From NCBI RefSeq assembly GCF_007748075.1, contig NZ_CP036280.1, positions 1,020,001 to 1,052,000 on the forward strand: a stretch of 32,000 bases of DNA. The letters run 5' to 3'. Under the pieces are notes generated by a model. It was not told the origin of the DNA, searched no databases, and was given only the letters and a program-made list of their open reading frames with translations. Below are positions 12,499 through 24,325 of the stretch, piece after piece. Numbering within the stretch: position 1 is the first letter of the stretch; each line of letters begins with the position of its first letter. The translations under genes and the position numbers were made by a program. The stretch comes from Mucisphaera calidilacus. GTDB lineage: Bacteria > Planctomycetota > Phycisphaerae > Phycisphaerales > Phycisphaeraceae.

Positions 12499-12509
12499 TT
12501 ATAGGTGTG
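12499..12509 (+). repeat. 11-mer TTATAGGTGTG, copy 1 (cysE / GT26 divergent intergenic region)
   Basis: Exact 11-nt match to 13388-13398. It is AT-rich in a GC-rich window and lies in the intergenic region 59 nt upstream of the GT26 ATG. Confidence 0.5.
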
Positions 12510-12567
12510 CACGGTCGGATCGTCGGTCGCTTGTGTGAAGGAGCCGTCTTTGTCGGGATCTGGTGAC

Positions 12568-13347
12568 ATGGAGGTGGTGCGTGTGATGGGGCTTCCTCTG
12601 GTCCGGGCGACAGAGGCCCGGGTCGTCGCGTGGGTGGTGGATCGTGTGGTCTCGGGGCGTGGGGGATGGGTGATCACGCCGAATCTGGACATCCTGCGAC
12701 GCTGCGTCGCCGACGAGCAGACGCGCTCTCTGGTGGAGCGTGCCGATATCCGGGTGGCCGACGGGATGCCACTGGTGGCGGCGAGTCGGATCGCGGGCGA
12801 TCCGTTGCCCGAGCGTGTGGCCGGATCCAGTCTGGCCTGGACGGTGAGTGAGGCTGCAGCGCGTGAGGGTGTTCCGATCCTGCTGATCGGTGGCGCGCCG
12901 GGCGATGCGGACGCGGCTGCGGCGGTGCTTACAGACCACTATCCCGGCTTGAGGGTCGCGGGGACGGCCTGCCCGCCGATGGGTTTCGAGTCGGACGCGC
13001 ACGAGATGGCGTCGCTGGAGGCGTTGCTGCGCGGTGCGGACCGCGCGGTGATCTTCGTAGGGCTCGGTTTTCCCAAGCAGGAACAACTGATCGAGCGGCT
13101 GCGTCCTCTTTCGCCTGAGTCGTGCTGGCTGGGCGTCGGGATATCCTTCAGCTACGTCGCGGGCACGGTTCAGAGGGCTCCGGCGTGGGCACGGGGGCTG
13201 GGTGCGGAGTGGATTTACCGCCTGGTTCAGGAACCCGGGCGGCTTTGGCGGCGCTATCTGGTGGAGGGCCTGCCTTTCGGATTGCGATTGCTTGTATGGG
13301 CGATCCGGGCGAGACTGGGAGATAAGGGCGGGCCTGAGGGTCTGTGA
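12568..13347 (+). CDS. WecB/TagA/CpsF-family (GT26) glycosyltransferase
   Basis: VITPNLDILRR, VADGMPLVAASRIAG, ERVAGSSL, FVGLGFPKQEQLI, RAPAW and EWIYRLVQEPGRLWRRY are the GT26 signature blocks. ATG 12568 preferred over GTG 12505. Confidence 0.85.
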   Translation: MEVVRVMGLPLVRATEARVVAWVVDRVVSGRGGWVITPNLDILRRCVADEQTRSLVERADIRVADGMPLVAASRIAGDPLPERVAGSSLAWTVSEAAAREGVPILLIGGAPGDADAAAAVLTDHYPGLRVAGTACPPMGFESDAHEMASLEALLRGADRAVIFVGLGFPKQEQLIERLRPLSPESCWLGVGISFSYVAGTVQRAPAWARGLGAEWIYRLVQEPGRLWRRYLVEGLPFGLRLLVWAIRARLGDKGGPEGL

Positions 13348-13387
13348 CGTCTGGGGTATTTGGGGTTATTGCAGGGCAGGACTATAC

Positions 13388-13398
13388 TTATAGGTGTG
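13388..13398 (+). repeat. 11-mer TTATAGGTGTG, copy 2 (upstream edge of the exosortase operon)
   Basis: Exact 11-nt match to 12499-12509. Preceded by TATACT (13383-13388). It lies 17 nt upstream of ATG 13415 and contains the alternative GTG 13394. Confidence 0.5.
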
Positions 13399-14416
13399 GC
13401 TGCCCGATATCAGGATGGTGAATGTGAAGGCTGACGCGACAAGGGAATCGTCTGCGCCGGGACCGGGGGCTGGCGAGACGGATGCTGTTTCCGATGAGCT
13501 CTCATCGGGCGTGGTGCCGCGCGCGGTCCTGCTGCTCGCGGGCGCGACACGGCGTGTCGGCCTCGCCGATCAGTTAGCCCGCTCGCCGCTGGAGCTTCCG
13601 GTCGAGGGCGATCGCCGGGTCTTTGATCTGTGGTTGTCACGCTTAAGCGCGTTGGCCCGGGCGACGGGCGCATCACGCCTGCCGGTGCGCGTCCTCGTGA
13701 ACGACCGGGTCCCGCGGCCGGATCATCGGACGGGCCCCGCCGGCCTCGCGGTCTCGATCGAACTCGACGGGCTTGAACTGCGTGGCACGGCTGGCCTGCT
13801 GGCCGATAGCTGTGCCGATTATGACGACGACGACTGGGTGCTGATCGCCAGTGGCGGCCAGATCGTAACGCGTTCCTTGATCGAACCTTACCGCCGGTTA
13901 CAGGCGGCGGAAGGCGTTTTTCGACTGCTGCGTCACGAGGACGGTGCTCCCGGTGGCGTGGCGCTGATGCGCTGCGGCGTGCTCCGTGACGTCGCCTCTC
14001 AGGGCTACATCGATCTCAAGGAGCAGTTCCTGCCGAAGCTCGCCGAACGGGAACGCGTGGTGACGGTAGACCACCCGACGATCACCCTGCCTGTACGCAC
14101 CGTCAATGACTACATCCAGGGCCTGCAGGCGTATCACCGCGGCAAGGATCTCGACGGTGCGATCGAACCTTATGCCGAGGACTGGCGTAGTAGCTTCTCG
14201 ATCATCGAGTCGGGTGCCGATGTTGAACAAACAGCCCGCCTGCACGACTCGGTCGTGCTGAGCGGCGGACGTGTGGGAGCGAGGGCGATTCTGGTGCGAT
14301 CGGTGGTGTGCAAAAACGGGGTGGTCCACGCGGGACGCATGCAGCGTGACGCGGTGATCGGCGGGCGCCAGAGCGGCGTCTCCTCGACCGAGGGGAGGTC
14401 CCGTGCCCGTCGATAG
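13394..14416 (+). CDS. Sugar-nucleotidyltransferase-like protein with C-terminal left-handed beta-helix; glycine-rich loop degenerate
   Basis: AVLLLAGATRRVG sits where LAGGxGTRL is expected. Also RGTAGLLAD, DWVLIASGGQIV, VRTVNDYIQGLQAY and a C-terminal hexapeptide-like run (DSVVLSGGRVGARAILVRSVVCKNGVVHAG). Start is GTG 13394 or ATG 13415. Family assignment is by eye only. Confidence 0.5.
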   Translation: MWLPDIRMVNVKADATRESSAPGPGAGETDAVSDELSSGVVPRAVLLLAGATRRVGLADQLARSPLELPVEGDRRVFDLWLSRLSALARATGASRLPVRVLVNDRVPRPDHRTGPAGLAVSIELDGLELRGTAGLLADSCADYDDDDWVLIASGGQIVTRSLIEPYRRLQAAEGVFRLLRHEDGAPGGVALMRCGVLRDVASQGYIDLKEQFLPKLAERERVVTVDHPTITLPVRTVNDYIQGLQAYHRGKDLDGAIEPYAEDWRSSFSIIESGADVEQTARLHDSVVLSGGRVGARAILVRSVVCKNGVVHAGRMQRDAVIGGRQSGVSSTEGRSRARR

Positions 14417-15287
14417 CACCAACTGGACACGAAACGGATGGACCGACCTGCACCTGATGGCGGTGCTGATCATGGTCTTCTCCGCCCTGTGGGTATGCCG
14501 AGAGGCGTGGCAGGATATCTTCCTGATCGCGGCGCGCGACGAGGAGAACAGCCACATCTTCCTCGTGCCCTTCGTGATGTTCTGGCTGGTGTGGGTCCGT
14601 CGCCAGAGATTCCGGTTCTGCTATCCCACCGGGCAGTGGGTCGGCCCGCTGATCGCGGGTCTGGGTGCTTTCATGTCGTGGTACGGCTACAACCACGCCG
14701 TCCAGGCCTCGTGGCACGTCGGCGCGGTGGTGATCGCGGTTGGAGCCTTCACATCCGTGATGGGAACACAGGTGCTCTGGCGCTTCGCTCCGGCCTTCGT
14801 GACGCTGCTGTTCCTGGTCCCGGTCCCGGGGCTGATCCGACAGGAGATCGCGATACCACTCCAGCGCTGGACGGCGTTGATCACGACCGAAACGCTGACG
14901 ACCTTCGGCGTCTCGGTAAGCCAATCGGGGAGCGTCCTCGAGATCAACGGGATGCAGGTCGGTATCGCCGAGGCCTGCAACGGGATGCGCATGGTCTTTG
15001 CCCTGCTGCTGGTGTCGTTCGCCTTCGCGTTCGGGACACCGCTGCGCAACTCGGTGCGTGTCTTCATCGTGCTGCTGAGCCCCGTCTCCGCGATTCTCTG
15101 CAACGTGGTACGTCTGTCGCCGACCGTGTGGGTCTACGGGGCCCTCGGCGAGGGCGCGGGCAAGCTGGTTCATGACCTGGGCGGCTGGGTGATGATCGGC
15201 GTGGCGTTCTTCCTGCTGCTGGGGATCAAGAGCCTGCTGGAGTGGGCCTTGATCCCGGTGACCCCCTATGTGCTGGCTCGTGACTGA
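14403..15287 (+). CDS. Exosortase (EpsH/Xrt family) transpeptidase
   Basis: Polytopic membrane protein. DEENSHIFLVPFVMFWLVWVRR is the N-terminal exosortase block. Putative catalytic Cys in IAEACNGMRMV (Cys codon 14976-14978), Arg in LCNVVRL (15111-15113) and His in VHDLGGW (15171-15173). An EpsI gene follows. Start uncertain (GTG 14403 overlaps the upstream gene by 14 nt; ATG 14457 is an alternative). Confidence 0.8.
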   Translation: MPVDSTNWTRNGWTDLHLMAVLIMVFSALWVCREAWQDIFLIAARDEENSHIFLVPFVMFWLVWVRRQRFRFCYPTGQWVGPLIAGLGAFMSWYGYNHAVQASWHVGAVVIAVGAFTSVMGTQVLWRFAPAFVTLLFLVPVPGLIRQEIAIPLQRWTALITTETLTTFGVSVSQSGSVLEINGMQVGIAEACNGMRMVFALLLVSFAFAFGTPLRNSVRVFIVLLSPVSAILCNVVRLSPTVWVYGALGEGAGKLVHDLGGWVMIGVAFFLLLGIKSLLEWALIPVTPYVLARD

Positions 15288-15304
15288 TCAGGGAGTTTGT
15301 GGGT

Positions 15305-16009
15305 ATGGCAACGGTGCTTCGTGAAAGCCTGGTCTGGACGTGGTTGGCCCCGAGTCTGCTGACTCTGGTGCTGATCGGCACGTGGGACCTGATCCAGCAG
15401 GGCTACGCGAAGCCCGCGGACGCCGAGCCCTATCACGAACGCGTCGCCGAAGCCGTCAACCAGCTGCCGGCATCGTTCGACGGCTGGAAGAGCGAGACGA
15501 TCGAGGCACAGCGTGAGGCCGTTCAACTCCTCAAGCCGAACGTGATCCTCAGCCGACGCTATCACCACGAGGACCACGACGTCCCGGTCAATCTGCTGCT
15601 GGTGCACTGCAAACAGGCACGCGACATGGTCGGGCACTACCCGCCGATCTGCTACCCCAGCGGCGGCTGGACGGAGCGCGTCGAGAACCGCCGCAGGATC
15701 GTCTTCGAGATCGGTGGCTGGTCGATCCCGGTGATGGAGTATCACTTCTTCCAGTCGCTGCCGGGCAGCTCCGTGGACGTCTACGTGATCAACACACTGC
15801 TGCTGCCCGATGGCCAGATCGACCCGTCGATGGACGTGATCCGTGACCTGGAGTCCGATTTCCGCAAGCGCTTTTTCGGCAGCGGCCAGCTCCAGATCCT
15901 GATCCGCGGCGAGCCGGATCCCGGTTACCGAGAGGATCTGGCGTACCGGTTTGTGGAGTTAAGTCTGCCCGTGATCGAGACGGTGCGAGGGGGTGTGCCC
16001 CGTGAGTGA
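15305..16009 (+). CDS. Exosortase-associated EpsI-family protein
   Basis: One N-terminal TM helix, then FDGWKSETIEA...VILSRRY...LLLVHCKQARDMVGHYPPICYPSGGW, which resembles the EpsI H-x-P-x-x-C-x-x-x-x-G-W block. Lies immediately downstream of the exosortase. ATG 15305 is 9 nt after GGGAG. Confidence 0.7.
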   Translation: MATVLRESLVWTWLAPSLLTLVLIGTWDLIQQGYAKPADAEPYHERVAEAVNQLPASFDGWKSETIEAQREAVQLLKPNVILSRRYHHEDHDVPVNLLLVHCKQARDMVGHYPPICYPSGGWTERVENRRRIVFEIGGWSIPVMEYHFFQSLPGSSVDVYVINTLLLPDGQIDPSMDVIRDLESDFRKRFFGSGQLQILIRGEPDPGYREDLAYRFVELSLPVIETVRGGVPRE

Positions 16010-16019
16010 GGAGAAAGTC

Positions 16020-18554
16020 ATGGCTGATACAGATGGCGGCGCGATGCTTCCCGTGCCCGTTCGACCGGGCGTGGACGAGAGCCAGTTGTCCGACCGACAG
16101 GACGTCTCGCCGCTGCGACGCGTCCACCACCTCTTGCAGGGGCGTTACGCCTGGGTGGTCGGACTGTCCCTGATCTTCGGGGCGCTCGGCGGCGCGGGCG
16201 GCTATTTCTTCCTCGACGATATCTACCTCGCCAAGGCCCATATCGAGGCGGAGTCTTACCGCGAGAAGACCGTCTATCAGCTTGAGGAGAACGAACGCCT
16301 GCCCGACTTCGACCGCTGGGTGGCACGACGCGCACGGCTCATCACCGAAGACCCACGCGTGCTGCAGCGGGCGTTCGAGGACCCGTCGGTGCAGCGACAC
16401 GTCCTGACGGCGGACCAGGTCACCGAGGGCGCCGAATCCCTGCGCGACAGCATGACCGTGTTCCACGATCCGCGCACGAGCATGATCACGGTGATGTACG
16501 AGCACACCGACCCCGAGGGCGCTGAGATCGTCACGCAGGCCGTGATCGAGGGGTTCATGGCGATCTACGGGCAACGCGACATCGACGCGATGAACCAGAA
16601 AATCGTGAAGGTGACGCAGGAACGCGAGGAACGTCAGCGCCAGATCAAGCAGAAAAAGCAGGAGATCAGCCTCATCGCGAACGAGTACGGCTCGGACGTT
16701 CTGCTCTCGATGTACGAACGGAAGCTGGCGGACTACCAGGAATTCGAGAGCAAGACGCGGCTGACCGAAACCGAGATGGTGATGCGAGGCATCGACGTCA
16801 CCCTGTCGATGGACGAGCAGATCGCCTTGCTCAACGCCCAGTCGGATCAGGACCCGAACAAGCTTACGGCGCAGGACTACGCGATCCGCGGCGAACCGAC
16901 CGTGCGCAAGCTCATGAGCCAGATGGACGCCGTCGCGGGCCAGATCCGGTCGCTCAACGCGCAGGGGTTGGGCTCGCAGCACTGGCGGGTGAAGAACCTC
17001 AAGGGCGAGTACGACAGCCTGGCGTCGACGCTGCAACGGGAGGTTGATCAGCTCAATGCGCTGCTCGCGACCCAGGAACAATCGGTGCAGGTCGCCATGG
17101 TCAGCACCGAGGACCTCTCCCTGCTCTCGGACTACCAGCTGATCCGCCGTTACGCCACCGAAGAGAAACTCCGCAAGGAGCTCGAGGAGCAGACACGCGT
17201 GCTGGGCCAGCGACGGCTGCAGATCGACGAGTTGAAGGAAGAGGTCCAGGCGCTCCAGCAGGATCTGGCCTTTGTCGAAGGGCGTCTCAAGCGGCTGACG
17301 ACCGAGGCGGGCACGGACGAGGACGCGGGGCGACTGGACATCGCGAGTAACGCCTTTGCCCTGCGGCAACCCGTGAACGGCGGCAAACGCAAGCAGCTGG
17401 CGGTCGCCGGCATGGGCGCCGGCGTAGTGCTGGGCGTCGGCGTGATGCTCTTGATCGGGCTGATGGACCCGCGTGTCCGCAGCACGGACGAGGCAACCAG
17501 TCGCGTCGGCCAGACACGACTGCTGGGGGTGCTGCCGATGCTGCCCGAGGACCTGGGCGACCCGGCAAACGCCGCGGTGGTGGGCTACTCGGTGCACCAC
17601 ATGCGCACGCTGCTCCAACTCGGGCACCGGGCGGCCACCTCGCCCGCGTTCGCCGTGACCGGCCCCGCTACAGGATCAGGCAAGACGAGCCTGACCATCT
17701 CACTGGGCATGTCGTTCGCGGCCACCGGCGCACGCACCTTGCTGATCGACTCGGACCTGGCGGGCGGCGGGTTGAGCTATCGTCTCGAGGCCGTGGTCCG
17801 CCGGCGCATCGGCCAGATCCTGGTGGATGCCGGCGAGATCACCAGCCAGGAGTTGCAGCAGGCGTTGGCGGCGGCGTCCTCATCGGGCCAGCGTCTGGGC
17901 GAATCGCTGATCAACCTCGGGCTGCTGGAACCCAGCCGGCTCAGCGAGATCCTCGAGATGCAAACAAACACCTACGTGGGGCTGCTCGACGCTATCAACG
18001 GCGAGCCGGTCGAAGGATGCATCACGCAGACCGACATCGAAAACCTCTGGGTGCTCCCGATCGGCGGCGCCTTGCTCGACGACATGGGGCGTATCTCGCC
18101 GAACTCGGTGCGCAACGTGATCCAGCAGGCCCGCGAACAGTTCGACGTGGTGCTGGTGGACACCGGCCCGATCCCGGGCAGCGTGGAGACCTCGATGGTG
18201 GCCGCGGAGGCCGACCAGGTGGTCATGATCGTCGCACGCGGCGACGAGCGGAGCCGGGTGGAGTCGGCGGTCGGCTTCCTGCACTCGCTCGGCGCTAACC
18301 TCGCAGGATTTGTCTTCAACCGCGCCGAACAGGCCGACCTCGAGCGGTCACACCTCTCGAGTTCACTGAGCAGCCGCTCAGCGGCGTTCTCGACCGATCA
18401 GCGTCAGGGCGGGATGCCCAATGACGCCAACGGGCCGAACTTCGGCGCCGTGGCACGCGCGATGGTCTCGCGTCACGGCGAGGCCGTGGTCACGAGCACG
18501 ATCGCCGACGTGGAGCCGAACGGCACCGGAGCGAGAGGGGAGCGAGGCGGTTGA
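16020..18554 (+). CDS. Wzc/EpsG-like polysaccharide co-polymerase (chain-length determinant) fused to a BY-kinase-type P-loop ATPase domain, with inserted MshEN-like module
   Basis: TM1 YAWVVGLSLIFGALGGAGGYFFL, a long coiled-coil periplasmic region, then TM2 LAVAGMGAGVVLGVGVMLLIGLM. Walker A GPATGSGKTS (17661-17690), Walker A' LLIDSDL (17739-17759), Walker B VVLVDTGP (18147-18170). ATG 16020 is 6 nt after GAGGAG. Confidence 0.85.
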   Translation: MADTDGGAMLPVPVRPGVDESQLSDRQDVSPLRRVHHLLQGRYAWVVGLSLIFGALGGAGGYFFLDDIYLAKAHIEAESYREKTVYQLEENERLPDFDRWVARRARLITEDPRVLQRAFEDPSVQRHVLTADQVTEGAESLRDSMTVFHDPRTSMITVMYEHTDPEGAEIVTQAVIEGFMAIYGQRDIDAMNQKIVKVTQEREERQRQIKQKKQEISLIANEYGSDVLLSMYERKLADYQEFESKTRLTETEMVMRGIDVTLSMDEQIALLNAQSDQDPNKLTAQDYAIRGEPTVRKLMSQMDAVAGQIRSLNAQGLGSQHWRVKNLKGEYDSLASTLQREVDQLNALLATQEQSVQVAMVSTEDLSLLSDYQLIRRYATEEKLRKELEEQTRVLGQRRLQIDELKEEVQALQQDLAFVEGRLKRLTTEAGTDEDAGRLDIASNAFALRQPVNGGKRKQLAVAGMGAGVVLGVGVMLLIGLMDPRVRSTDEATSRVGQTRLLGVLPMLPEDLGDPANAAVVGYSVHHMRTLLQLGHRAATSPAFAVTGPATGSGKTSLTISLGMSFAATGARTLLIDSDLAGGGLSYRLEAVVRRRIGQILVDAGEITSQELQQALAAASSSGQRLGESLINLGLLEPSRLSEILEMQTNTYVGLLDAINGEPVEGCITQTDIENLWVLPIGGALLDDMGRISPNSVRNVIQQAREQFDVVLVDTGPIPGSVETSMVAAEADQVVMIVARGDERSRVESAVGFLHSLGANLAGFVFNRAEQADLERSHLSSSLSSRSAAFSTDQRQGGMPNDANGPNFGAVARAMVSRHGEAVVTSTIADVEPNGTGARGERGG
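17805..17963 (+). other. Tandem MshEN (T2SSE_N)-type putative c-di-GMP-binding motifs inserted in the P-loop domain
   Basis: RIGQILVDAGEITSQELQQALAAA (17805-17876), SSSGQ spacer (17877-17891), RLGESLINLGLLEPSRLSEILEMQ (17892-17963). Unit 2 fits RLGxx(LVI)(LVI)xxG(LVIF)(LVI)xxxxLxxxLxxQ at every specified position. Unit 1 deviates at positions 2, 11 and 24. Confidence 0.6.
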
Positions 18555-18580
18555 TCCAGCCCGTATCGACGAAAGAGCCG

Positions 18581-19978
18581 ATGCCGACGGTGTGGGGCTT
18601 GACCCCGGTCGAGCTGCACGATCGCTTCTGGGCGTCGCGTGGCGTCCAGGTCGTCCGGTGCGGCGAGGTCATCGACGTCGTCGAGGACGCGGAGCTGTTT
18701 CTGCTGACGGCGGGCGCACTGCTGACGATCTTCCGCATGCGGGGACTGATCGAGGACCTGAGCTGGGTCAAGCCACGCGTCATGTGGGTGCGGATCAATG
18801 ACACCCACGAGCGTGGTTACCGCGAACGCGTGCTCCGCCACGACGACGGCCGGCTGCGCGGCTTCGAGCGTGACTACGGCGGCGCGGACACCCGCCTGTC
18901 GCGCGTCGCGCTGACGCCCGACCGAAAAATCGCCCTCGCCTGGCAACGCTGCTCCAACGCCCGCGAGGGCTGGGCGATGCTCCGGCAGAGTGTTCACCCC
19001 AATCGACGGCTGAGCCACCAGATCCGAGGCTGGACCTATGACCGCAATCAGCCCACGGAGGTACACACGTTTGTCCGCGACCTGATCGGCGTCTGGAAGC
19101 AGCCCGGCGCAACAGTCGAACGCGTCACGCGCGCGGGCCGTGAGGCGTGGGTGGATCAGGGAAACGCGCCGCCGGAAGGCGTGACGTTCATCGGCCCGAC
19201 CTGGATCGGAGCCGGACGCGCGCTGGACGCGAACGAGGCGGTCGTCGGCCCCGCGGTGCTGTGGGACGACCCCGCGTCACGCCCCGAACCCGAACACCTC
19301 GACTGGCGCGAGATCGAACCGGGAACCATGCTTGAACGCCCGGTGCGCGTGCCCCGTCGGTCGACAGCATCACGAGCGGCGAAGCGCCTCTTCGACATCG
19401 TGTTCGCGCTGCTGGCACTCATCCTCGTGCTGCCGGTCTTCCCGATCGTGATGCTCGCGATCTGGCTGGAGGACGGCGGCCCCTTCTTCTTCGCGCACAT
19501 GCGCGAGACCGTCGGCGGCAGAGAGTTCCCCTGTTTCAAGTTCCGGTCGATGCGCAAGGACGCCGAGGCGATCAAGGCAAAACTGGCCGAGGCCAACCAG
19601 GTGGACGGGCCGCAGTTCTTCATGGAGCAGGACCCGCGCGTGACCAACGTCGGACGCTGGCTGCGCAAGCTGCAGATCGACGAACTGCCGCAGTTCTTCA
19701 ACGTGCTCCGCGGCGAGATGTCCGTGGTGGGGCCGCGACCGAGCCCGCGGAAGGAAAACCAGTTCTGCCCGCCGTGGCGCGAGGCTCGACTCAGTGTCCG
19801 GCCCGGGGTGACCGGCCTCTGGCAGGTCTGCCGCACGCGCGAAGAAGGAAAAGATTTCCAGGAGTGGATCCGTTTTGACATCGAGTACGTCGAGCACGGT
19901 ACCCTGATGACAGATATATGGATCGTGTACCGCACGATCCGGATGCTGGTCCTGTCCCCGTTCAGCCAGAGAGGATGA
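18581..19978 (+). CDS. Monotopic phosphoglycosyl transferase (bacterial sugar transferase family) with ~266-aa soluble N-terminal extension
   Basis: C-terminal domain: KRLFDIVFALLALILVLPVFPIVMLAIWLEDGGPFFF (re-entrant helix), FKFRSM, DPRVTNVGRWLRKLQIDELPQFFNVLRGEMSVVGPRP (DE dyad and PRP motif). ATG 18581 preferred; TTG 18551, overlapping the upstream stop, is possible. Confidence 0.85.
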   Translation: MPTVWGLTPVELHDRFWASRGVQVVRCGEVIDVVEDAELFLLTAGALLTIFRMRGLIEDLSWVKPRVMWVRINDTHERGYRERVLRHDDGRLRGFERDYGGADTRLSRVALTPDRKIALAWQRCSNAREGWAMLRQSVHPNRRLSHQIRGWTYDRNQPTEVHTFVRDLIGVWKQPGATVERVTRAGREAWVDQGNAPPEGVTFIGPTWIGAGRALDANEAVVGPAVLWDDPASRPEPEHLDWREIEPGTMLERPVRVPRRSTASRAAKRLFDIVFALLALILVLPVFPIVMLAIWLEDGGPFFFAHMRETVGGREFPCFKFRSMRKDAEAIKAKLAEANQVDGPQFFMEQDPRVTNVGRWLRKLQIDELPQFFNVLRGEMSVVGPRPSPRKENQFCPPWREARLSVRPGVTGLWQVCRTREEGKDFQEWIRFDIEYVEHGTLMTDIWIVYRTIRMLVLSPFSQRG

Positions 19979-19984
19979 TCCATC

Positions 19985-22900
19985 GTGGCGATTCGATCGA
20001 AGGCCCGTCGCCGGCTGCTCCTGCTGCTGGTGATCGCTGTAGGTGGCGTATCTGTTATTGGTGGTTTCTGGGCGTTCCGCAAGCAGCAGGCCGAGGCTGC
20101 CCTGTTCGCCTCGCGTGCGGAGGGTGTGGCCGCTTACGAAGACGAACGCTACTTCGAAGCAATGCACGCGCTCGGGCCTTACGTGGTCAAGCACCGCGAT
20201 GACGCCGAGGCACTCTACCTCTACGCGCTCTCACGCCTGGAGGTCGAGGAGGGTGACGGCGTGAGTCACCTGCGCGCCGGCGCGAGTCACCTCCGTGACG
20301 TGGTGACCCTGAACCCCGAGAACGTGGAAGCCAAACGCCGACTCCTTGAGCTCTACAGCATGATGGGCTACGCGCCCGAAGCGCTGGACCTGGCGGACGT
20401 GCTGCTGGCCGATTTTCCGAACGATGCCGAGGCGTGGGCCCACAAGGCCTCCGCGTTGGTGACGGCTCGGCGGTTCGATGAACTCATCGAGATGGCGGAC
20501 GCCATCCTCGCCGATAACACCCTGCCCGAGGCGCTGCGGGTCGAAGCGATGCGGCACCGCGCCGTAGCCCTGCTCCGCAAGGACCGCGCGGCAGAGGCGA
20601 TGTTCCAGGCGATCGAACTCAACGAGAACGCGCCGGATGATTTCCGCGGCTACCTGCTCACGTTCGAAACCATGCGGGCAAACCAGAACACCGCGGACGA
20701 GGTCATCCGCTGGGCTGAATCGGTCGAGGCGGAGCACGACGATCTGGACGGGACCGCGCTGCTCGTCGCGATGGCCTGTCTCGACAAACCGGGCGGCCGC
20801 GCACAGGCCCTTGGCTGGCTCAAGGCCGAGGTCGAGAACCAGCCCGAGGAGACGCTCGTCATCCAGATGCTCATTCAGCGACTGGGTCAGCTCGGCCTGC
20901 TGGACATGAGCATCGAGATGCTCGGCGACCTCTGCGAACGCTCACCCTCGCTGCAGTACGAGCTTCGGCTCATGCGTTACCTGCTCTACGCGGGCCGCCA
21001 CCTAGAGGTGGTGGAGCGTTCGGACTTCCACGCGGAGAACCCGGATCGCGCAAGCCTGCGTGCCCTGGGCTACCGGGCGCAGGCCCTGTTCGAACTAGAC
21101 CGTGGCGATGAGGCTCAGGGGCTGATCGAGCGCCTCGAAGGCAAGTCAAGTGACACCGTCGCGCTCTCCTACGGAACAATGCTGCGACTGATCTACGTCG
21201 AGCAGGACGTCGCCCCGCTCAGGATCGTGCAGGCCGGCGAGACGGCGGTTCAACGCGACCCGATGAACCCCTACTTCCACTTCTGGATGGGCCAGGCGCT
21301 CTCATCCCTCGGGGAGCACGACCGCGCGATCGAGGCGTGGGCACAGGCACTGCGTCGCGCACCCGTGTGGATGGCCCCGACGATCGCGATCACACGCGAA
21401 ATGACCCTGGCGGACCGTGATCTGGAAGCCTTCGGCTTCGCGTACCAGATCTGGCGGCAGCAGCCGGAACACCCGATGCTGATCATGAACCTGTTCCGCT
21501 CGGCGGAGCCGGTACTCGACCAGATCACCGCAGAGACGCGACAGGTCCTGCTGGCGGATTCGCAGAGACTGCTGGCACGGTCGCCGGTCCACCCGGTCAT
21601 CCTGCCACTGCACGTCCGTCTGAAGGCCAGTCTCGATGGGCGTGACGCCGCCCGCGGTGCCATCGAGTCCGCGCTGACGCAGGACCCGCTGCCCGACACG
21701 GCCACGCTGCTGAGGCTCGCAGAGATCAGTCTCCAGCTGGGGCTGGAGATGGAGGATCGACTGGTAGGCGTGGCGGAGTCGGACACGTCCTCACCGAACG
21801 TGGTGCTCGCGCAGGCCACGCTCCTCTACCAGCAGGGGCAGGCGGCTCAGGCCAGGCAGCTCATGGATGACGCCGTCGCGAGTGCTTCATCGCCCGAACT
21901 GGCACTGGCGATGCGGCAGGTGCGCGCGACCGTTCTGGATCGCCAGCGCGACCCCGAAGCACTGTCGGCATGGGCCGGATTGATCGAGGATGCCCCGAAC
22001 GACGCGCGACTGCTCCAACGCGCACTCTCGATGCGCGCGATCTGGACCGATCGCGAAGTGTCGGAACGCGCGATCGAGTCGCTGCGCAAGGTCACGGGAC
22101 GCGAAGCGGTCGGCTGGCGCGTCGATCGTGCTCGCTGGCTACTCGGCCCCGAAGCCGGTGATGAGCAAGTCACGGAAGCGAAACGCCTGCTCGAGGGTGT
22201 CATCGAGTCGGCACCCGCCCTGGTCGAACCGCGTGTCATGCTGGCCGAGATCTATCGCCGTGAGGGCGATCCGGAGTCCGCGGTGACGCAACTCGAACGG
22301 GCTCTGGAGCTGCGCGACAATATCCGCATCCGTATGGTGCTCGCACAACTGCTCGTCCAGGCCGACCTGATTGACGAGGCCTTACGCGAGTACGCGACGC
22401 TGATCGATGCACGCGACACCCTGAGCCCGGAGCAGATGCAGCAGCTGGCGTTACAGGTGTCGGCGCTCGGCGAGAACGGCATGGCGATCGGGCTCCTGGA
22501 GTCGGCGGGCGACGGCCTCTGGTTGCAGGGGCGTCTGCTGCTGGCAAGCTTGTACGAGCAGGTCGGCCGAGCCTCCGACGCCGAAGGCCTCTACGAGACG
22601 ATGCTGCGCGACGAAGAACCGACACTGGCCCTGCTCAGCGGTGCCGCGCGCTTCTACCAGCAGCGTGGCGACGAGGCACGGGCCGAGGCCCTGATCGCGG
22701 GCCTGGGCGAGGTCGAGGGCCTGAGCGAGGCAGACGCCTTGATGATTCAAGGCGACTACTACCGACGCTCCGGCGTTCTTGAGCGGTCGCTCGGACTCTA
22801 CAAGCAAGCCATGGACCTTGACCCCGAGCGTCTCGAAGCCTGGCAACGGTCGCTGGCGGTCTCGGTCCTGCTGGGGGACAGCGAGGGCGCCCGGGCCCTG

Positions 22901-24325
22901 CTCGACGGGATGTCGCAGCGGTTCCCAGGCGATGGCCGTGTGAGCTTCATCACCGATCACCGCGCCACCATGGACCGCGCCGTCGGCGATCCGGGGATGG
23001 CGCCACTGGTGCTCCAGGTCGTCGAACAACCCGGCTCACGCGGCCCGGCACTGGCGATCCTCGACGCCACCTACTCGATCGATGGCGATCTCAGCGGCGC
23101 GACCGAAGCCGAGCGTCGTGCGGTCTTCGAATCGATGGCGATGAAGCTGCGACCCGTGGTGCGGATGTACCCGCGATACCTCAGCGGTCACCTGGTCCTG
23201 GCCCGGACGCTGATCGAGGCGGGCCGCATCGAGGAGGCGAAGACCATCACGCTGCAGGCGGTCCGTTCGTTCCCGGATTCGCCGGAACCGAAAGCGCTGG
23301 CAACAGACCTGCTGCTCCGCGAGGGCGAGTGGCTACAGGCACGGAGTATGGCGATGTCCTGGCGCGAGACGCTCGCCGATCCGAGGCCCGCAGACATTCG
23401 GCTCGCCCGTGCGATGAACCAGCTGCGCACGCCCGAGCAGGCGGTGATGACGCTCGATCCCTACATCGAGACAGCCCTGGAATCGCCGGTGACGCAGCAG
23501 GAACTGCTCTCGACGTGGGCGATCGGCATGATCCAGAGCGGACGCGGCGCCGAGGCGCGTCAGGCCCTGCTGCCCGCGGCACGCGAACACGCGGTCTGGC
23601 GCATGACATGGCTTCAGCTCATCGGACGTGTCATCACGACCAGGGACGAGGCCGTGGCATGGATGGAGGACCTCGAAAGCGTCCTCGATCAGGAGGTCGA
23701 GGACGAACGGCTGCAACTCGCACTGGGCTGGCGCGAGATCGGACAGCGATACGACGACCCGGCCCTGCGCGAACGCAGCGCATCGCTGCTGAGCGGCTCG
23801 CTGGACGAGGCCTCCTCAGCCCGTGCCATCCTCAGCATGGCCATCATGGACGACACCGATGGACGAAGCGAGAAGGCGGAAGCGGGTTACAGGCGGGTGC
23901 TCGAGCTCGAACCCGAGAACCCGATCGCGGCCAACAACCTCTCGATGGTCCTGCACAAGCGTGGAGCACACGACGAGGCCGTGGCGGTCGCACGCCTCGC
24001 CGTCCGCGTCGCCCCGATGGTGCCGACGTTCCGTGACACGCTTGCCATCGCGTTGCTCGGTGCCGGCGACCACGACGCGGCGCTGGAAGAGGCACAGACG
24101 GCCGTGAGGCAGCAACCCGATGAGGTCGCCTGGCTGCTGACACAGGCCGAGATCCTGGTGGCCATGCAACGCGCGGACGCACTCGAGGACGTGATCGAGA
24201 GCCTCGACCGCAATCTGCGCGTCAGCCCCAACGAAGACCCGGACTTCCAGCAGCGGCTGCAGGCCGTGCGTGCCGCTTTGGAGTCGATGTCAAGCAATCC
24301 TGTGCCCACCGCCGCAGCGCCCTGA
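19985..24325 (+). CDS. Giant (1446 aa) signal-anchored TPR-repeat protein, PrsT-like by context
   Basis: N-terminal RRRLLLLLVIAVGGVSVIGGFWAF forms a TM anchor with no lipobox Cys. The remainder is helical, with many 34-residue Ala/Leu/Tyr/Glu-rich TPR-like repeats (for example AEAGYRRVLELEPENPIAANNLSMVL). GTG start is 7 nt after the PGT stop. Confidence 0.8.
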   Translation: MAIRSKARRRLLLLLVIAVGGVSVIGGFWAFRKQQAEAALFASRAEGVAAYEDERYFEAMHALGPYVVKHRDDAEALYLYALSRLEVEEGDGVSHLRAGASHLRDVVTLNPENVEAKRRLLELYSMMGYAPEALDLADVLLADFPNDAEAWAHKASALVTARRFDELIEMADAILADNTLPEALRVEAMRHRAVALLRKDRAAEAMFQAIELNENAPDDFRGYLLTFETMRANQNTADEVIRWAESVEAEHDDLDGTALLVAMACLDKPGGRAQALGWLKAEVENQPEETLVIQMLIQRLGQLGLLDMSIEMLGDLCERSPSLQYELRLMRYLLYAGRHLEVVERSDFHAENPDRASLRALGYRAQALFELDRGDEAQGLIERLEGKSSDTVALSYGTMLRLIYVEQDVAPLRIVQAGETAVQRDPMNPYFHFWMGQALSSLGEHDRAIEAWAQALRRAPVWMAPTIAITREMTLADRDLEAFGFAYQIWRQQPEHPMLIMNLFRSAEPVLDQITAETRQVLLADSQRLLARSPVHPVILPLHVRLKASLDGRDAARGAIESALTQDPLPDTATLLRLAEISLQLGLEMEDRLVGVAESDTSSPNVVLAQATLLYQQGQAAQARQLMDDAVASASSPELALAMRQVRATVLDRQRDPEALSAWAGLIEDAPNDARLLQRALSMRAIWTDREVSERAIESLRKVTGREAVGWRVDRARWLLGPEAGDEQVTEAKRLLEGVIESAPALVEPRVMLAEIYRREGDPESAVTQLERALELRDNIRIRMVLAQLLVQADLIDEALREYATLIDARDTLSPEQMQQLALQVSALGENGMAIGLLESAGDGLWLQGRLLLASLYEQVGRASDAEGLYETMLRDEEPTLALLSGAARFYQQRGDEARAEALIAGLGEVEGLSEADALMIQGDYYRRSGVLERSLGLYKQAMDLDPERLEAWQRSLAVSVLLGDSEGARALLDGMSQRFPGDGRVSFITDHRATMDRAVGDPGMAPLVLQVVEQPGSRGPALAILDATYSIDGDLSGATEAERRAVFESMAMKLRPVVRMYPRYLSGHLVLARTLIEAGRIEEAKTITLQAVRSFPDSPEPKALATDLLLREGEWLQARSMAMSWRETLADPRPADIRLARAMNQLRTPEQAVMTLDPYIETALESPVTQQELLSTWAIGMIQSGRGAEARQALLPAAREHAVWRMTWLQLIGRVITTRDEAVAWMEDLESVLDQEVEDERLQLALGWREIGQRYDDPALRERSASLLSGSLDEASSARAILSMAIMDDTDGRSEKAEAGYRRVLELEPENPIAANNLSMVLHKRGAHDEAVAVARLAVRVAPMVPTFRDTLAIALLGAGDHDAALEEAQTAVRQQPDEVAWLLTQAEILVAMQRADALEDVIESLDRNLRVSPNEDPDFQQRLQAVRAALESMSSNPVPTAAAP

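What the first reader, a model, noticed from the sequence alone, without database searches (positions are those of the whole stretch)
17805..17963. Two MshEN-type c-di-GMP-binding motifs inserted inside the P-loop domain of the Wzc-like co-polymerase
There is a ~53-aa insertion between Walker A' (LLIDSDL, 17739-17759, followed by AGGGLSYRLEAVV) and the conserved VGLLDAINGE segment. It reads RIGQILVDAGEITSQELQQALAAA - SSSGQ - RLGESLINLGLLEPSRLSEILEMQ, that is, two 24-residue units separated by exactly 5 residues.

The published MshEN (T2SSE_N) receptor signature is two copies of RLGxx(L/V/I)(L/V/I)xxG(L/V/I/F)(L/V/I)xxxxLxxxLxxQ with a 5-residue spacer. Unit 2 matches every specified position. 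Unit 1 keeps R1, G3, L6, V7, G10, I12, L17 and L21, and deviates at positions 2 (I), 11 (E) and 24 (A).

As I recall the E. coli Wzc sequence, only a few residues occupy this position, so this looks like a domain insertion rather than family background. MshEN modules are best known at the N-terminus of MshE/GspE/PilB ATPases. I do not know of a description of one embedded in a BY-kinase-type ATPase. If functional, c-di-GMP would gate the polysaccharide co-polymerase ATPase directly. That would be a different control point from PilZ (BcsA, Alg44), PelD or GIL-type receptors.
Basis: partly seen in the sequence, partly recalled or inferred. Interest (0 to 1): 0.88.

Follow-up and report, generated by a model that had tools for sequence, protein, structure and literature searches.

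The report
c-di-GMP sensor module inside polysaccharide-export ATPase
A slime-forming marine bacterium, and its whole class, carries a small module resembling a known sensor of the signalling molecule cyclic-di-GMP spliced into the ATPase of its polysaccharide export protein, suggesting (untested) that the signal directly switches slime production.

Summary
Window 17805-17963 encodes two 24-residue motifs with a 5-residue spacer. The segment matches the curated 53-residue NCBIfam model for the MshE-type c-di-GMP module end to end (50.4 bits, cut-off 38). It aligns to V. cholerae MshE residues 7-61 and is predicted to fold like the solved MshE structure (0.8 Å over 54 columns).

It is a net insertion of about 58 residues just after Walker A' of a BY-kinase-fold ATPase. 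That ATPase is fused to an EpsF-like co-polymerase from Mucisphaera calidilacus.

The insert is gap-free in all 153 family representatives examined. The best 80 of 383 genomic relatives are all Phycisphaerae, mostly beside an exosortase, and 75 of 80 sit directly upstream of the sugar-phosphate transferase.

Three corrections are needed:
- An MshEN_N fusion to this type of ATPase is already on record. EpsG of proteobacterial exosortase loci carries it at the N-terminus (Wang 2016 supplement; TIGR03029).
- The family lacks the C-terminal tyrosine cluster, so it is not a typical tyrosine autokinase.
- Motif I has Ala, not Gln, at position 24 in most of the family (113 of 153).

c-di-GMP binding is plausible but untested. 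I rate it a new variant of a known kind.

The parts
16020..18554 (+). Gene for the 844-aa fused co-polymerase/ATPase (P0001). The mechanical ORF starts at GTG 15993.
16146..16214 (+). Predicted transmembrane helix 1
   Evidence: Hydropathy scan; inference
16215..17396 (+). Periplasmic, coiled-coil-rich region resembling the chain-length determinant EpsF
   Evidence: TIGR03017 EpsF, E 4e-8, profile 116-433/444, far below cut-off
17397..17465 (+). Predicted transmembrane helix 2
   Evidence: Hydropathy maximum
17592..17621 (+). Helix VHHMRTLLQL, at the position of the BY-kinase EX2RX2R oligomerisation motif. Here it reads [H/Y]xxHxxR.
   Evidence: Alignment to BceF; H 149/153 and R 153/153
17661..17690 (+). 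Walker A, GPATGSGKTS
   Evidence: G, K, T and S are invariant or nearly so in 153 relatives
17739..17759 (+). Walker A' (switch I), LLIDSDL. DxD is kept. The Arg of the BY-kinase DxDxR is absent.
17799..17807 (+). Basic triad RRR leading into motif I (family consensus R-R-K/R). It corresponds to R7-K8-R9 of V. cholerae MshE.
   Evidence: Alignment to 5HTL; conservation
17805..17876 (+). MshEN_N motif I, RIGQILVDAGEITSQELQQALAAA (predicted helices 1 and 2)
17877..17891 (+). Five-residue spacer, SSSGQ
17892..17963 (+). MshEN_N motif II, RLGESLINLGLLEPSRLSEILEMQ (predicted helices 3 and 4). It matches the strict motif in full.
17976..18005 (+). VGLLDAINGE, where the BY-kinase/MinD core resumes after the insert
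   Evidence: Alignments to CapB and MinD
18147..18170 (+). Walker B, VVLVDTGP
   Evidence: D and G invariant
18348..18392 (+). Ser-rich start of the C-terminal tail. There is no Tyr cluster.
12505..13347 (+). WecB/TagA/CpsF-family glycosyltransferase of the same locus
   Evidence: TIGR00696, 133 bits against cut-off 69; syntenic in 43/80 loci
13394..14416 (+). Conserved 340-aa protein of unknown function, with a weak hexapeptide-repeat hit
   Evidence: syntenic in 65/80 loci
14403..15287 (+). Exosortase
   Evidence: TIGR02602, 110.2 bits against cut-off 105.55; present in 64/80 loci
15299..16009 (+). EpsI-like / DUF3485 exosortase-associated protein
   Evidence: PF11984, 51 bits; TIGR02914 below cut-off
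18551..19978 (+). Polyprenyl glycosylphosphotransferase with an uncharacterised ~260-aa N-terminal domain. Its start overlaps the stop codon of the co-polymerase gene.
   Evidence: PF02397 at residues 278-466; directly downstream in 75/80 loci
19985..24325 (+). PrsT-like TPR protein of exosortase systems
   Evidence: TIGR02917, 153 bits, below cut-off; present in 40/80 loci

Best explanation
**What it is**
- The gene encodes a single-chain polysaccharide co-polymerase of a Phycisphaerae exosortase-linked exopolysaccharide locus.
- The N-terminal half has two transmembrane helices around an EpsF-like periplasmic domain.
- The C-terminal half is a cytoplasmic ATPase with the BY-kinase/MinD fold.
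- A complete MshEN_N module (four helices, two 24-residue motifs) is spliced into a surface loop about 15 residues after Walker A' (the switch-I region).

**Shown here**
- The module is homologous to the c-di-GMP-binding half of MshE.
- It is a true insertion.
- It is conserved across the family, with selection on the ligand-contact positions.
- The ATPase keeps Walker A, A' and B but has no tyrosine cluster.

**Inferred**
- The module binds one c-di-GMP.
- Because it sits next to switch I, binding changes ATP turnover and/or ring assembly of the cytoplasmic domains.
- c-di-GMP, rather than tyrosine phosphorylation, would then set the assembly/disassembly cycle that drives polymerisation and export.
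- By analogy with MshE and NfrB, I expect c-di-GMP to activate.
For: **Identity of the module**
- NF053729 matches end to end, above its cut-off.
- Sequence homology to 5HTL MshE and to PilF c-di-GMP domains.
- AF2 predicts four helices in the insert, at domain residues 92-98, 104-117, 121-127 and 133-145, with pLDDT about 85-90.
- The insert modelled alone has 5HTL as its top PDB match: rmsd 0.8 Å over 54 columns, TMq 0.80.

**Host fold**
- Top Foldseek hits are CapB, Wzc, VpsO, BceF and Etk at E 1e-11 to 1e-9, followed by MinD.

**Insertion**
- Split alignments to CapB, BceF and MinD.
- The three pieces map to TIGR03029 profile positions 86-142, 4-58 and 157-271 in that order along the protein.

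**Selection**
- The insert is gap-free in 153 of 153 relatives at 42-100% identity.
- Motif positions have mean entropy 1.39 against 2.59 bits for the other insert positions.
- All eight guanine-contact positions (h2, G3, h17, h21 in both halves) are kept in 138 of 153. Gln24 of motif II is kept in 148 of 153.
- The basic triad before motif I is conserved.

**Published precedent**
- The Leu triads and Gly residues dominate MshE affinity. R9, D12 and Q32 substitutions change it no more than fivefold (PMC5013675).
- Isolated MshEN_N modules bind c-di-GMP (same paper).

**Context**
- Conserved synteny with exosortase, EpsI, the sugar-phosphate transferase and PrsT.
- The host strain grows embedded in a dense extracellular matrix (PMC8882080).
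- No Tyr cluster.
Against: - No binding or activity data exist for any member.
- Motif I lacks Gln at position 24 in most of the family (Ala 113, Ser 20 of 153). Position 7 is often polar. Only 3 of 153 meet even the relaxed published motif I.
- This particular protein has Glu at motif I position 11, where the family has Leu.
- Pfam T2SSE_N does not hit.
- I could not check whether M. calidilacus makes c-di-GMP. No GGDEF gene lies in the window or in 1.37 Mb of related loci. GGDEF domains are reported only for other Phycisphaerae MAGs (PMC6461901).
The position of the module relative to the ATP site and the ring interfaces is inferred from the sequence position alone.
Confidence: 0.6

Rival explanations
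1. The insert is a degenerate MshEN_N that no longer binds a nucleotide. It would serve as a structural or protein-docking module, for example for the downstream sugar-phosphate transferase or for ring assembly. This is like XpsE/GspE N-domains, which kept the fold but lost c-di-GMP binding.
For: - Motif I departs from the published motif across most of the family, with Ala at position 24 and a variable position 7. Only 3 of 153 pass the relaxed motif I.
- Wang 2016 documents degenerate MshEN domains such as XpsE.
- There is no Pfam T2SSE_N hit.
- No GGDEF genes lie near any of the 80 loci.
Against: - XpsE lost the glycines, the arginine and the leucines (G11V, R38G, G40L, L54H, L58C, Q61V).
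- Here exactly those positions are the most conserved in the insert: G3 in 145 and 146, h2 in 153 and 151, h17 in 153 and 152, Q24 of motif II in 148 of 153.
- The score exceeds the curated NF053729 cut-off.
- Loss of Gln32 alone costs no more than fivefold in affinity in MshE.
Confidence: 0.25
2. The module binds a different cyclic dinucleotide, such as 3'3'-cGAMP, or has altered specificity because motif I is asymmetric.
For: - V. cholerae MshEN binds cGAMP weakly (PMC5013675).
- The two half-sites here differ systematically, with Ala against Gln at position 24.
Against: - Guanine recognition in MshE uses the backbone amides of G3 and x4 in both halves. Both RxG turns are conserved here.
- No MshEN_N with another preferred ligand is known to me.
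Confidence: 0.07
3. The resemblance is a chance match of an amphipathic helical linker to a loose motif.
For: The motif is rich in Leu, Gly and Gln, and short helical repeats are common.
Against: - E 1.4e-13 against the curated model.
- E 1e-16 for the profile against 5HTL.
- 5HTL is the rank-1 structural match at 0.8 Å.
- The length is exact: 24 + 5 + 24 residues.
Confidence: 0.01

Closest known systems
MshEN_N subdomain of V. cholerae MshE (PDB 5HTL; Wang et al. 2016, PMC5013675)
   Same: - A 53-residue module made of two 24-residue motifs and a 5-residue spacer.
- A four-helix fold.
- A basic triad before motif I.
- Conserved RxG turns, Leu triads and Gln in motif II.
- About 39% identity over 54 columns, predicted rmsd 0.8 Å.
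   Different: - It is internal to another domain, not at the N-terminus of a T2SS/T4P ATPase.
- There is no MshEN_C subdomain.
- Motif I ends in Ala instead of Gln.
EpsG, chain-length-determinant tyrosine kinase of proteobacterial exosortase/PEP-CTERM loci (TIGR03029; Methylobacillus sp. 12S BAC55137)
   Same: - The same two modules: MshEN_N plus a BY-kinase-type (AAA_31) ATPase.
- The same kind of locus, with an exosortase, an EpsF-like co-polymerase and a sugar-phosphate transferase.
- The architecture was already listed in Wang 2016 Suppl. Table 4.
   Different: - In EpsG the module is N-terminal (profile positions 4-58, before Walker A at 86-142) and the kinase is a separate polypeptide.
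- Here the module is inserted between profile positions about 142 and 157, and the ATPase is fused to the co-polymerase.
- The score is 64 against a cut-off of 313.8, so this is not an EpsG orthologue.
- I know of no c-di-GMP binding data for EpsG.
Wzc / CapB / VpsO / BceF BY-kinases (PCP-2a and PCP-2b)
   Same: - The fold is shared (Foldseek E 1e-11 to 1e-9).
- Walker A, A' (DxD) and B are present.
- The topology is shared: two transmembrane helices, a periplasmic domain and a cytoplasmic ATPase.
   Different: - No C-terminal Tyr cluster.
- EX2RX2R is replaced by [H/Y]xxHxxR.
- The Arg of DxDxR is missing.
- There is a 58-residue insertion.
- HMM scores are below all cut-offs.
BY pseudokinases EcpK and HfsB, the phosphorylation-independent PCP-2 subfamily (PMC12004946)
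   Same: A BY-kinase fold without a Tyr-rich tail, proposed to control co-polymerase cycles without tyrosine phosphorylation.
   Different: - EcpK has lost all Walker motifs and is a separate scaffold protein.
- This family keeps invariant Walker A, A' and B, is fused to the co-polymerase, and carries a ligand-binding module.
NfrB (GT2 glycosyltransferase with a C-terminal MshEN; named by NCBIfam as cyclic di-GMP-activated)
   Same: - An MshEN-type module attached to a polysaccharide-synthesis enzyme.
- The insert matches the NfrB model region 482-536.
   Different: - The output there is a glycosyltransferase, not a co-polymerase ATPase.
- The module is a terminal fusion, not an insertion.

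Membership tests
MshEN_N c-di-GMP-binding module | Two tandem 24-residue motifs separated by 5 residues (53 residues in all) | tested here: met
   Direct reading. NF053729 aligned 1-53/53.
MshEN_N c-di-GMP-binding module | Score above the curated model cut-off | tested here: met
   NF053729 scores 50.4 bits (57.5 for the insert alone) against 38. Pfam PF05157, which models the longer N+C domain, gives no hit.
MshEN_N c-di-GMP-binding module | Conserved contact residues in both motifs: R1, h2, G3, G10, h17, h21, Q24 | tested here: inconclusive
   Motif II is complete. Motif I keeps R, I, G, G, L and L but has Ala at position 24 (the majority residue in the family) and Glu at position 11 in this protein.
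MshEN_N c-di-GMP-binding module | Four-helix fold superimposable on 5HTL | tested here: met
   AF2 predicts four helices. 5HTL ranks first, rmsd 0.8 Å over 54 columns. This is a prediction, not an experiment.
MshEN_N c-di-GMP-binding module | Measured c-di-GMP binding | not testable with these tools
   Needs ITC or DRaCALA.
BY-kinase (Wzc/CapB type) | P-loop fold with Walker A, A' and B | tested here: met
   Foldseek. Motifs are invariant. A' has DxD but lacks the Arg of DxDxR.
BY-kinase (Wzc/CapB type) | C-terminal tyrosine cluster as autophosphorylation substrate | tested here: not met
   No Tyr in this protein's 75-residue tail. In the family, 126 of 150 have at most 1 Tyr in any 15 residues, against 4-9 in most of the canonical relatives P0005-P0027.
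BY-kinase (Wzc/CapB type) | EX2RX2R oligomerisation motif before Walker A | tested here: not met
   The aligned segment reads YSVHHMR. The family consensus is [H/Y]xxHxxR, and only the last Arg is kept.
BY-kinase (Wzc/CapB type) | Curated HMM cut-offs (TIGR01007, TIGR03018, PRK11519) | tested here: not met
   76.2 against 108; 57.8 against 230.7; 37.6 against 1068.
EpsG (TIGR03029) | MshEN_N at the N-terminus of a stand-alone kinase, and score above cut-off | tested here: not met
   The module order is permuted. The score is 64.1 against 313.8. The protein is fused to an EpsF-like domain.
Exosortase-linked EPS locus | Exosortase and EpsI-type gene adjacent, with PrsT-like TPR protein and priming sugar-phosphate transferase | tested here: met
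   TIGR02602 is above its cut-off. DUF3485, PF02397 and TIGR02917 hits are present. Synteny holds in 64, 47, 75 and 40 of 80 loci. PEP-CTERM substrate proteins were not searched.

The most novel reading that the evidence does not exclude
Across a whole bacterial class (Phycisphaerae), the tyrosine-phosphorylation switch of Wzc-type co-polymerases has been replaced by a second-messenger switch. c-di-GMP would bind a receptor module grafted next to switch I of the ATPase. That binding would directly drive the ring assembly/disassembly cycle that controls exopolysaccharide polymerisation and export. The proteobacterial EpsG fusion would be a second route to the same control point, possibly an independent one.
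Probability: 0.3. Interest if true: 0.75.

Novelty: new variant of a known kind. Interest (0 to 1): 0.55.

Why it matters
- c-di-GMP is known to control exopolysaccharide output at synthases (PilZ in BcsA and Alg44), at PelD, at BcsE (GIL domain) and at transcription. Direct control at the co-polymerase ATPase has only been hinted at by the unstudied EpsG fusion.
- This family gives a second, structurally different example: a domain insertion next to switch I, in a protein that has lost its tyrosine cluster.
- It suggests a concrete and easily testable idea, that a second messenger substitutes for tyrosine phosphorylation in cycling the co-polymerase.
- It supplies a candidate c-di-GMP receptor for Phycisphaerae, a class with almost no signalling biology.
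- It offers a candidate regulator for the conspicuous matrix of M. calidilacus.
- It adds a ligand-controlled case to the emerging 'phosphorylation-independent PCP-2' group.

Tried and rejected
- **Pfam T2SSE_N on the protein and on the insert:** no hit. This does not refute the finding, because the model covers the longer N+C domain and the dedicated 53-residue model hits.
- **The search for homologous proteins with the cytoplasmic domain and with the insert profile:** the word index returned only fragments and short unrelated MshEN peptides. They were of no use for architecture or taxonomy. The full-length search found only three close relatives.
- **tblastn of the domain and of an insert consensus against plasmids, to fetch an EpsG sequence:** no match. 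The EpsG arrangement was therefore read from the TIGR03029 profile coordinates and from Wang 2016.
- **Regex search for GGDEF genes in the window and in 80 loci:** none found. This is uninformative about whole genomes.
- **Literature searches pairing MshEN with tyrosine kinase, Wzc, BY-kinase, GumC, exosortase, PEP-CTERM or EpsG:** nothing relevant beyond the Wang 2016 supplement.
- **Chance similarity:** considered and rejected.
- **'Ordinary Wzc with a long loop':** considered and rejected.
Full report
**1. The observation**

The segment lies in ORF 15993-18554. The database copy of this protein is the 844-aa 'nucleotide-binding protein' of Mucisphaera calidilacus (P0001), which starts at 16020.

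Motif II satisfies the strict published motif. Motif I deviates at positions 2 (Ile), 11 (Glu) and 24 (Ala). Walker A (17661-17690), Walker A' (17739-17759) and Walker B (18147-18170) flank the segment.

**2. Is it really an MshEN module?**

Pfam finds only CbiA and AAA_31, split across the region, and gives no T2SSE_N hit.

NCBIfam's dedicated 53-residue model NF053729 ('c-di-GMP motif, MshE-related') aligns 1-53/53 to ORF residues 605-657. The E-value is 1.4e-13 and the score is 50.4 bits against a cut-off of 38. The insert alone scores 57.5 bits.

Other evidence agrees:
- The insert aligns to V. cholerae MshE (5HTL) residues 7-61 at E 2e-8, and to the T. thermophilus PilF c-di-GMP domains.
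- A profile of 38 family inserts reaches E 1e-16 for 5HTL and E 2e-30 for PilF.
- AlphaFold2 of the cytoplasmic domain (pLDDT 82.3, pTM 0.78) predicts four helices in the insert at pLDDT about 85-90.
- The insert modelled alone has 5HTL as its best PDB match, with rmsd 0.8 Å over 54 columns and TMq 0.80.

Chance similarity is excluded.

**3. Is it an insertion, and into what?**

The domain model's best structural matches are the BY-kinases CapB, Wzc, VpsO, BceF and Etk (E 1e-11 to 1e-9), followed by MinD.

Sequence alignments to CapB, BceF, VpsO and MinD break at the insert. Query residues 76 to 149 correspond to CapB residues 122 to 137, which is a net gain of about 58 residues.

The insertion point is about 15 residues after the DxD of Walker A'. 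In this ATPase class that is the switch-I region. This assignment rests on established knowledge of MinD/ParA-type ATPases and is an inference.

The N-terminal half has two hydrophobic helices. Between them is a periplasmic region that best matches the chain-length determinant EpsF (TIGR03017, E 4e-8, far below cut-off).

**4. Not a canonical tyrosine kinase**

- The C-terminal tail of this protein has no tyrosine.
- In 126 of 150 relatives no 15-residue window holds more than one Tyr. Most of the canonical relatives found in the same search have 4-9.
- The EX2RX2R helix reads [H/Y]xxHxxR.
- The Arg of DxDxR is absent.
- All BY-kinase HMMs score below their cut-offs.
- Walker A, A' and B are invariant, so this differs from the pseudokinases EcpK and HfsB, which lost them (PMC12004946).

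**5. Family and distribution**

An exhaustive HMMER search with the 286-residue cytoplasmic domain gave 668 cluster representatives at E<=1e-30. The best 150 all align end to end at 42-56% identity, and most are about 800 aa long.

In a MAFFT alignment of 153 members the insert is gap-free. Conservation within it is as follows:

| Measure | Result |
|---|---|
| Mean entropy, motif positions | 1.39 bits |
| Mean entropy, other insert positions | 2.59 bits |
| Permutations as low as observed | 0 of 100,000 |
| Gly3 kept, motif I / motif II | 145 / 146 of 153 |
| h2, h17, h21 kept | about 145-153 of 153 |
| Gln24 of motif II kept | 148 of 153 |
| Residue at motif I position 24 | Ala 113, Ser 20 |
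| Motif I position 7 | variable |
| Motif I position 11 | Leu in 90 (this protein's Glu is an outlier) |

All eight guanine-contact positions are kept in 138 of 153 members.

According to Wang et al. 2016, affinity depends mainly on the Leu triads and the glycines. R9, D12 and Q32 changes cost no more than fivefold. The degenerate XpsE lost exactly the residues that are conserved here.

A scan of one genome per species found 383 relatives. The best 80 are all Phycisphaerae: Phycisphaeraceae, Tepidisphaeraceae, Algisphaera, Poriferisphaera, Fontivita and Humisphaera. One MAG is labelled Bacillota but has the same synteny.

**6. Genomic context**

The window's locus reads, in order:
1. WecB-family glycosyltransferase
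2. conserved 340-aa protein
3. exosortase (TIGR02602, above cut-off)
4. EpsI/DUF3485 protein
5. this gene
6. sugar-phosphate transferase
7. PrsT-like TPR protein

tblastn of these neighbours against the 80 loci gives these counts:
- The sugar-phosphate transferase, including its uncharacterised N-terminal domain, is directly downstream in 75.
- Exosortase is present in 64.
- The 340-aa protein is present in 65.
- EpsI is present in 47.
- PrsT is present in 40.

About ten loci with full flanks have no exosortase within 10 kb.

The host strain grows as a viscous colloid in a dense extracellular matrix (PMC8882080).

**7. Prior knowledge**

Wang et al. 2016 (PMC5013675), Supplementary Table 4 and its notes, already list 'MshEN_N - AAA_31' for Methylobacillus EpsG, a proposed chain-length-determinant tyrosine kinase of beta- and gamma-proteobacteria.

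Mapping the three pieces of the present domain onto the TIGR03029 EpsG profile gives:
- the Walker A part maps to positions 86-142
- the insert maps to positions 4-58
- the rest maps to positions 157-271

EpsG therefore has the module at its N-terminus, whereas here it is internal.

No paper in the searchable library links MshEN with Wzc, BY-kinases, co-polymerases or exosortases.

The association of the two modules is therefore known, and it occurs in the same kind of locus. Four things are new:
- the inserted topology
- the fusion to the co-polymerase
- the absence of a Tyr cluster
- the Phycisphaerae-wide distribution

**8. Mechanism**

Shown: homology, insertion, conservation and context.

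Inferred: the module binds c-di-GMP, and its position beside switch I lets binding alter ATP turnover or ring assembly. That would gate polymerisation and export, possibly in place of tyrosine phosphorylation. I expect activation, by analogy with MshE and NfrB.

My confidence that the segment is an inserted MshEN_N homologue is about 0.97. My confidence that it binds c-di-GMP is about 0.65. My confidence in the whole statement is 0.6.

Main caveats:
- The asymmetric motif I.
- No check of c-di-GMP synthesis in this genome. No GGDEF genes lie in the window or the 80 loci, and GGDEF domains are reported in other Phycisphaerae.
- No access to model coordinates to place the module relative to the ATP site and the ring interfaces.

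**9. Verdict**

This is a new variant of a known kind. It is of moderate to good interest because it makes a specific, cheap biochemical test possible.

Noticed in passing
window 18551-19330 (+), N-terminal 260 aa of the sugar-phosphate transferase gene 18551-19978: The priming glycosylphosphotransferase has a soluble-looking N-terminal domain of about 260 aa. It has no Pfam, NCBIfam or PDB-sequence match. It is conserved and directly downstream of the MshEN-bearing gene in 75 of 80 Phycisphaerae loci. Its TTG start overlaps the upstream stop codon, which suggests translational coupling and perhaps a physical partnership.
   Followed up: partly
window 18348-18554 (+), C-terminal tail of the co-polymerase: In place of the BY-kinase tyrosine cluster the family has a Ser-rich tail (SHLSSSLSSRSAAFS here; family consensus is Ser-rich). 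Whether it is a phosphorylation substrate is unknown.
   Followed up: partly
window 17592-17621 and 17760-17790 (+): Two family-specific invariant features surround the ATP site. The first is VHH[I/M]RTLLQ in place of EX2RX2R (His 149/153, Arg 153/153). The second is GGGL[T/S]xR right after Walker A'. A nearly invariant Cys (P0001 C667, 148/153) follows the insert.
   Followed up: no
window 13394-14416 (+): A 340-aa protein with only a weak hexapeptide-repeat (GlmU-like C-terminal) hit. It is conserved upstream of the exosortase in 65 of 80 related loci. Its function is unknown.
   Followed up: partly
loci L020, L028, L032, L034, L035, L052, L061, L070, L075, L077; and L033, L040, L058: There are two locus variants. 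About ten loci with full flanks lack exosortase and EpsI between the 340-aa gene and the co-polymerase gene. Three loci have PrsT directly after the co-polymerase gene and no sugar-phosphate transferase. Two MAGs carry two copies each (L005 with L058, and L040 with L055).
   Followed up: no
locus L009 (JBLNDH010000708.1): This contig is labelled 'Bacillota bacterium' MAG but carries the complete Phycisphaerae-type gene order at 48-53% identity. A binning or labelling error is likely.
   Followed up: no
window 12505-24325: The exosortase-linked locus in the window contains no recognisable Wzx flippase, Wzy polymerase or Wza-type outer-membrane exporter. These must be encoded elsewhere or be too divergent to recognise.
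   Followed up: no
window 17805-17963 (insert): There is a weak Pfam DUF4388 match (E 0.029, profile positions 34-74) to the insert. DUF4388 co-occurs with MshEN in a Myxococcus architecture listed by Wang 2016, so part of that family may be related to MshEN_N.
   Followed up: no
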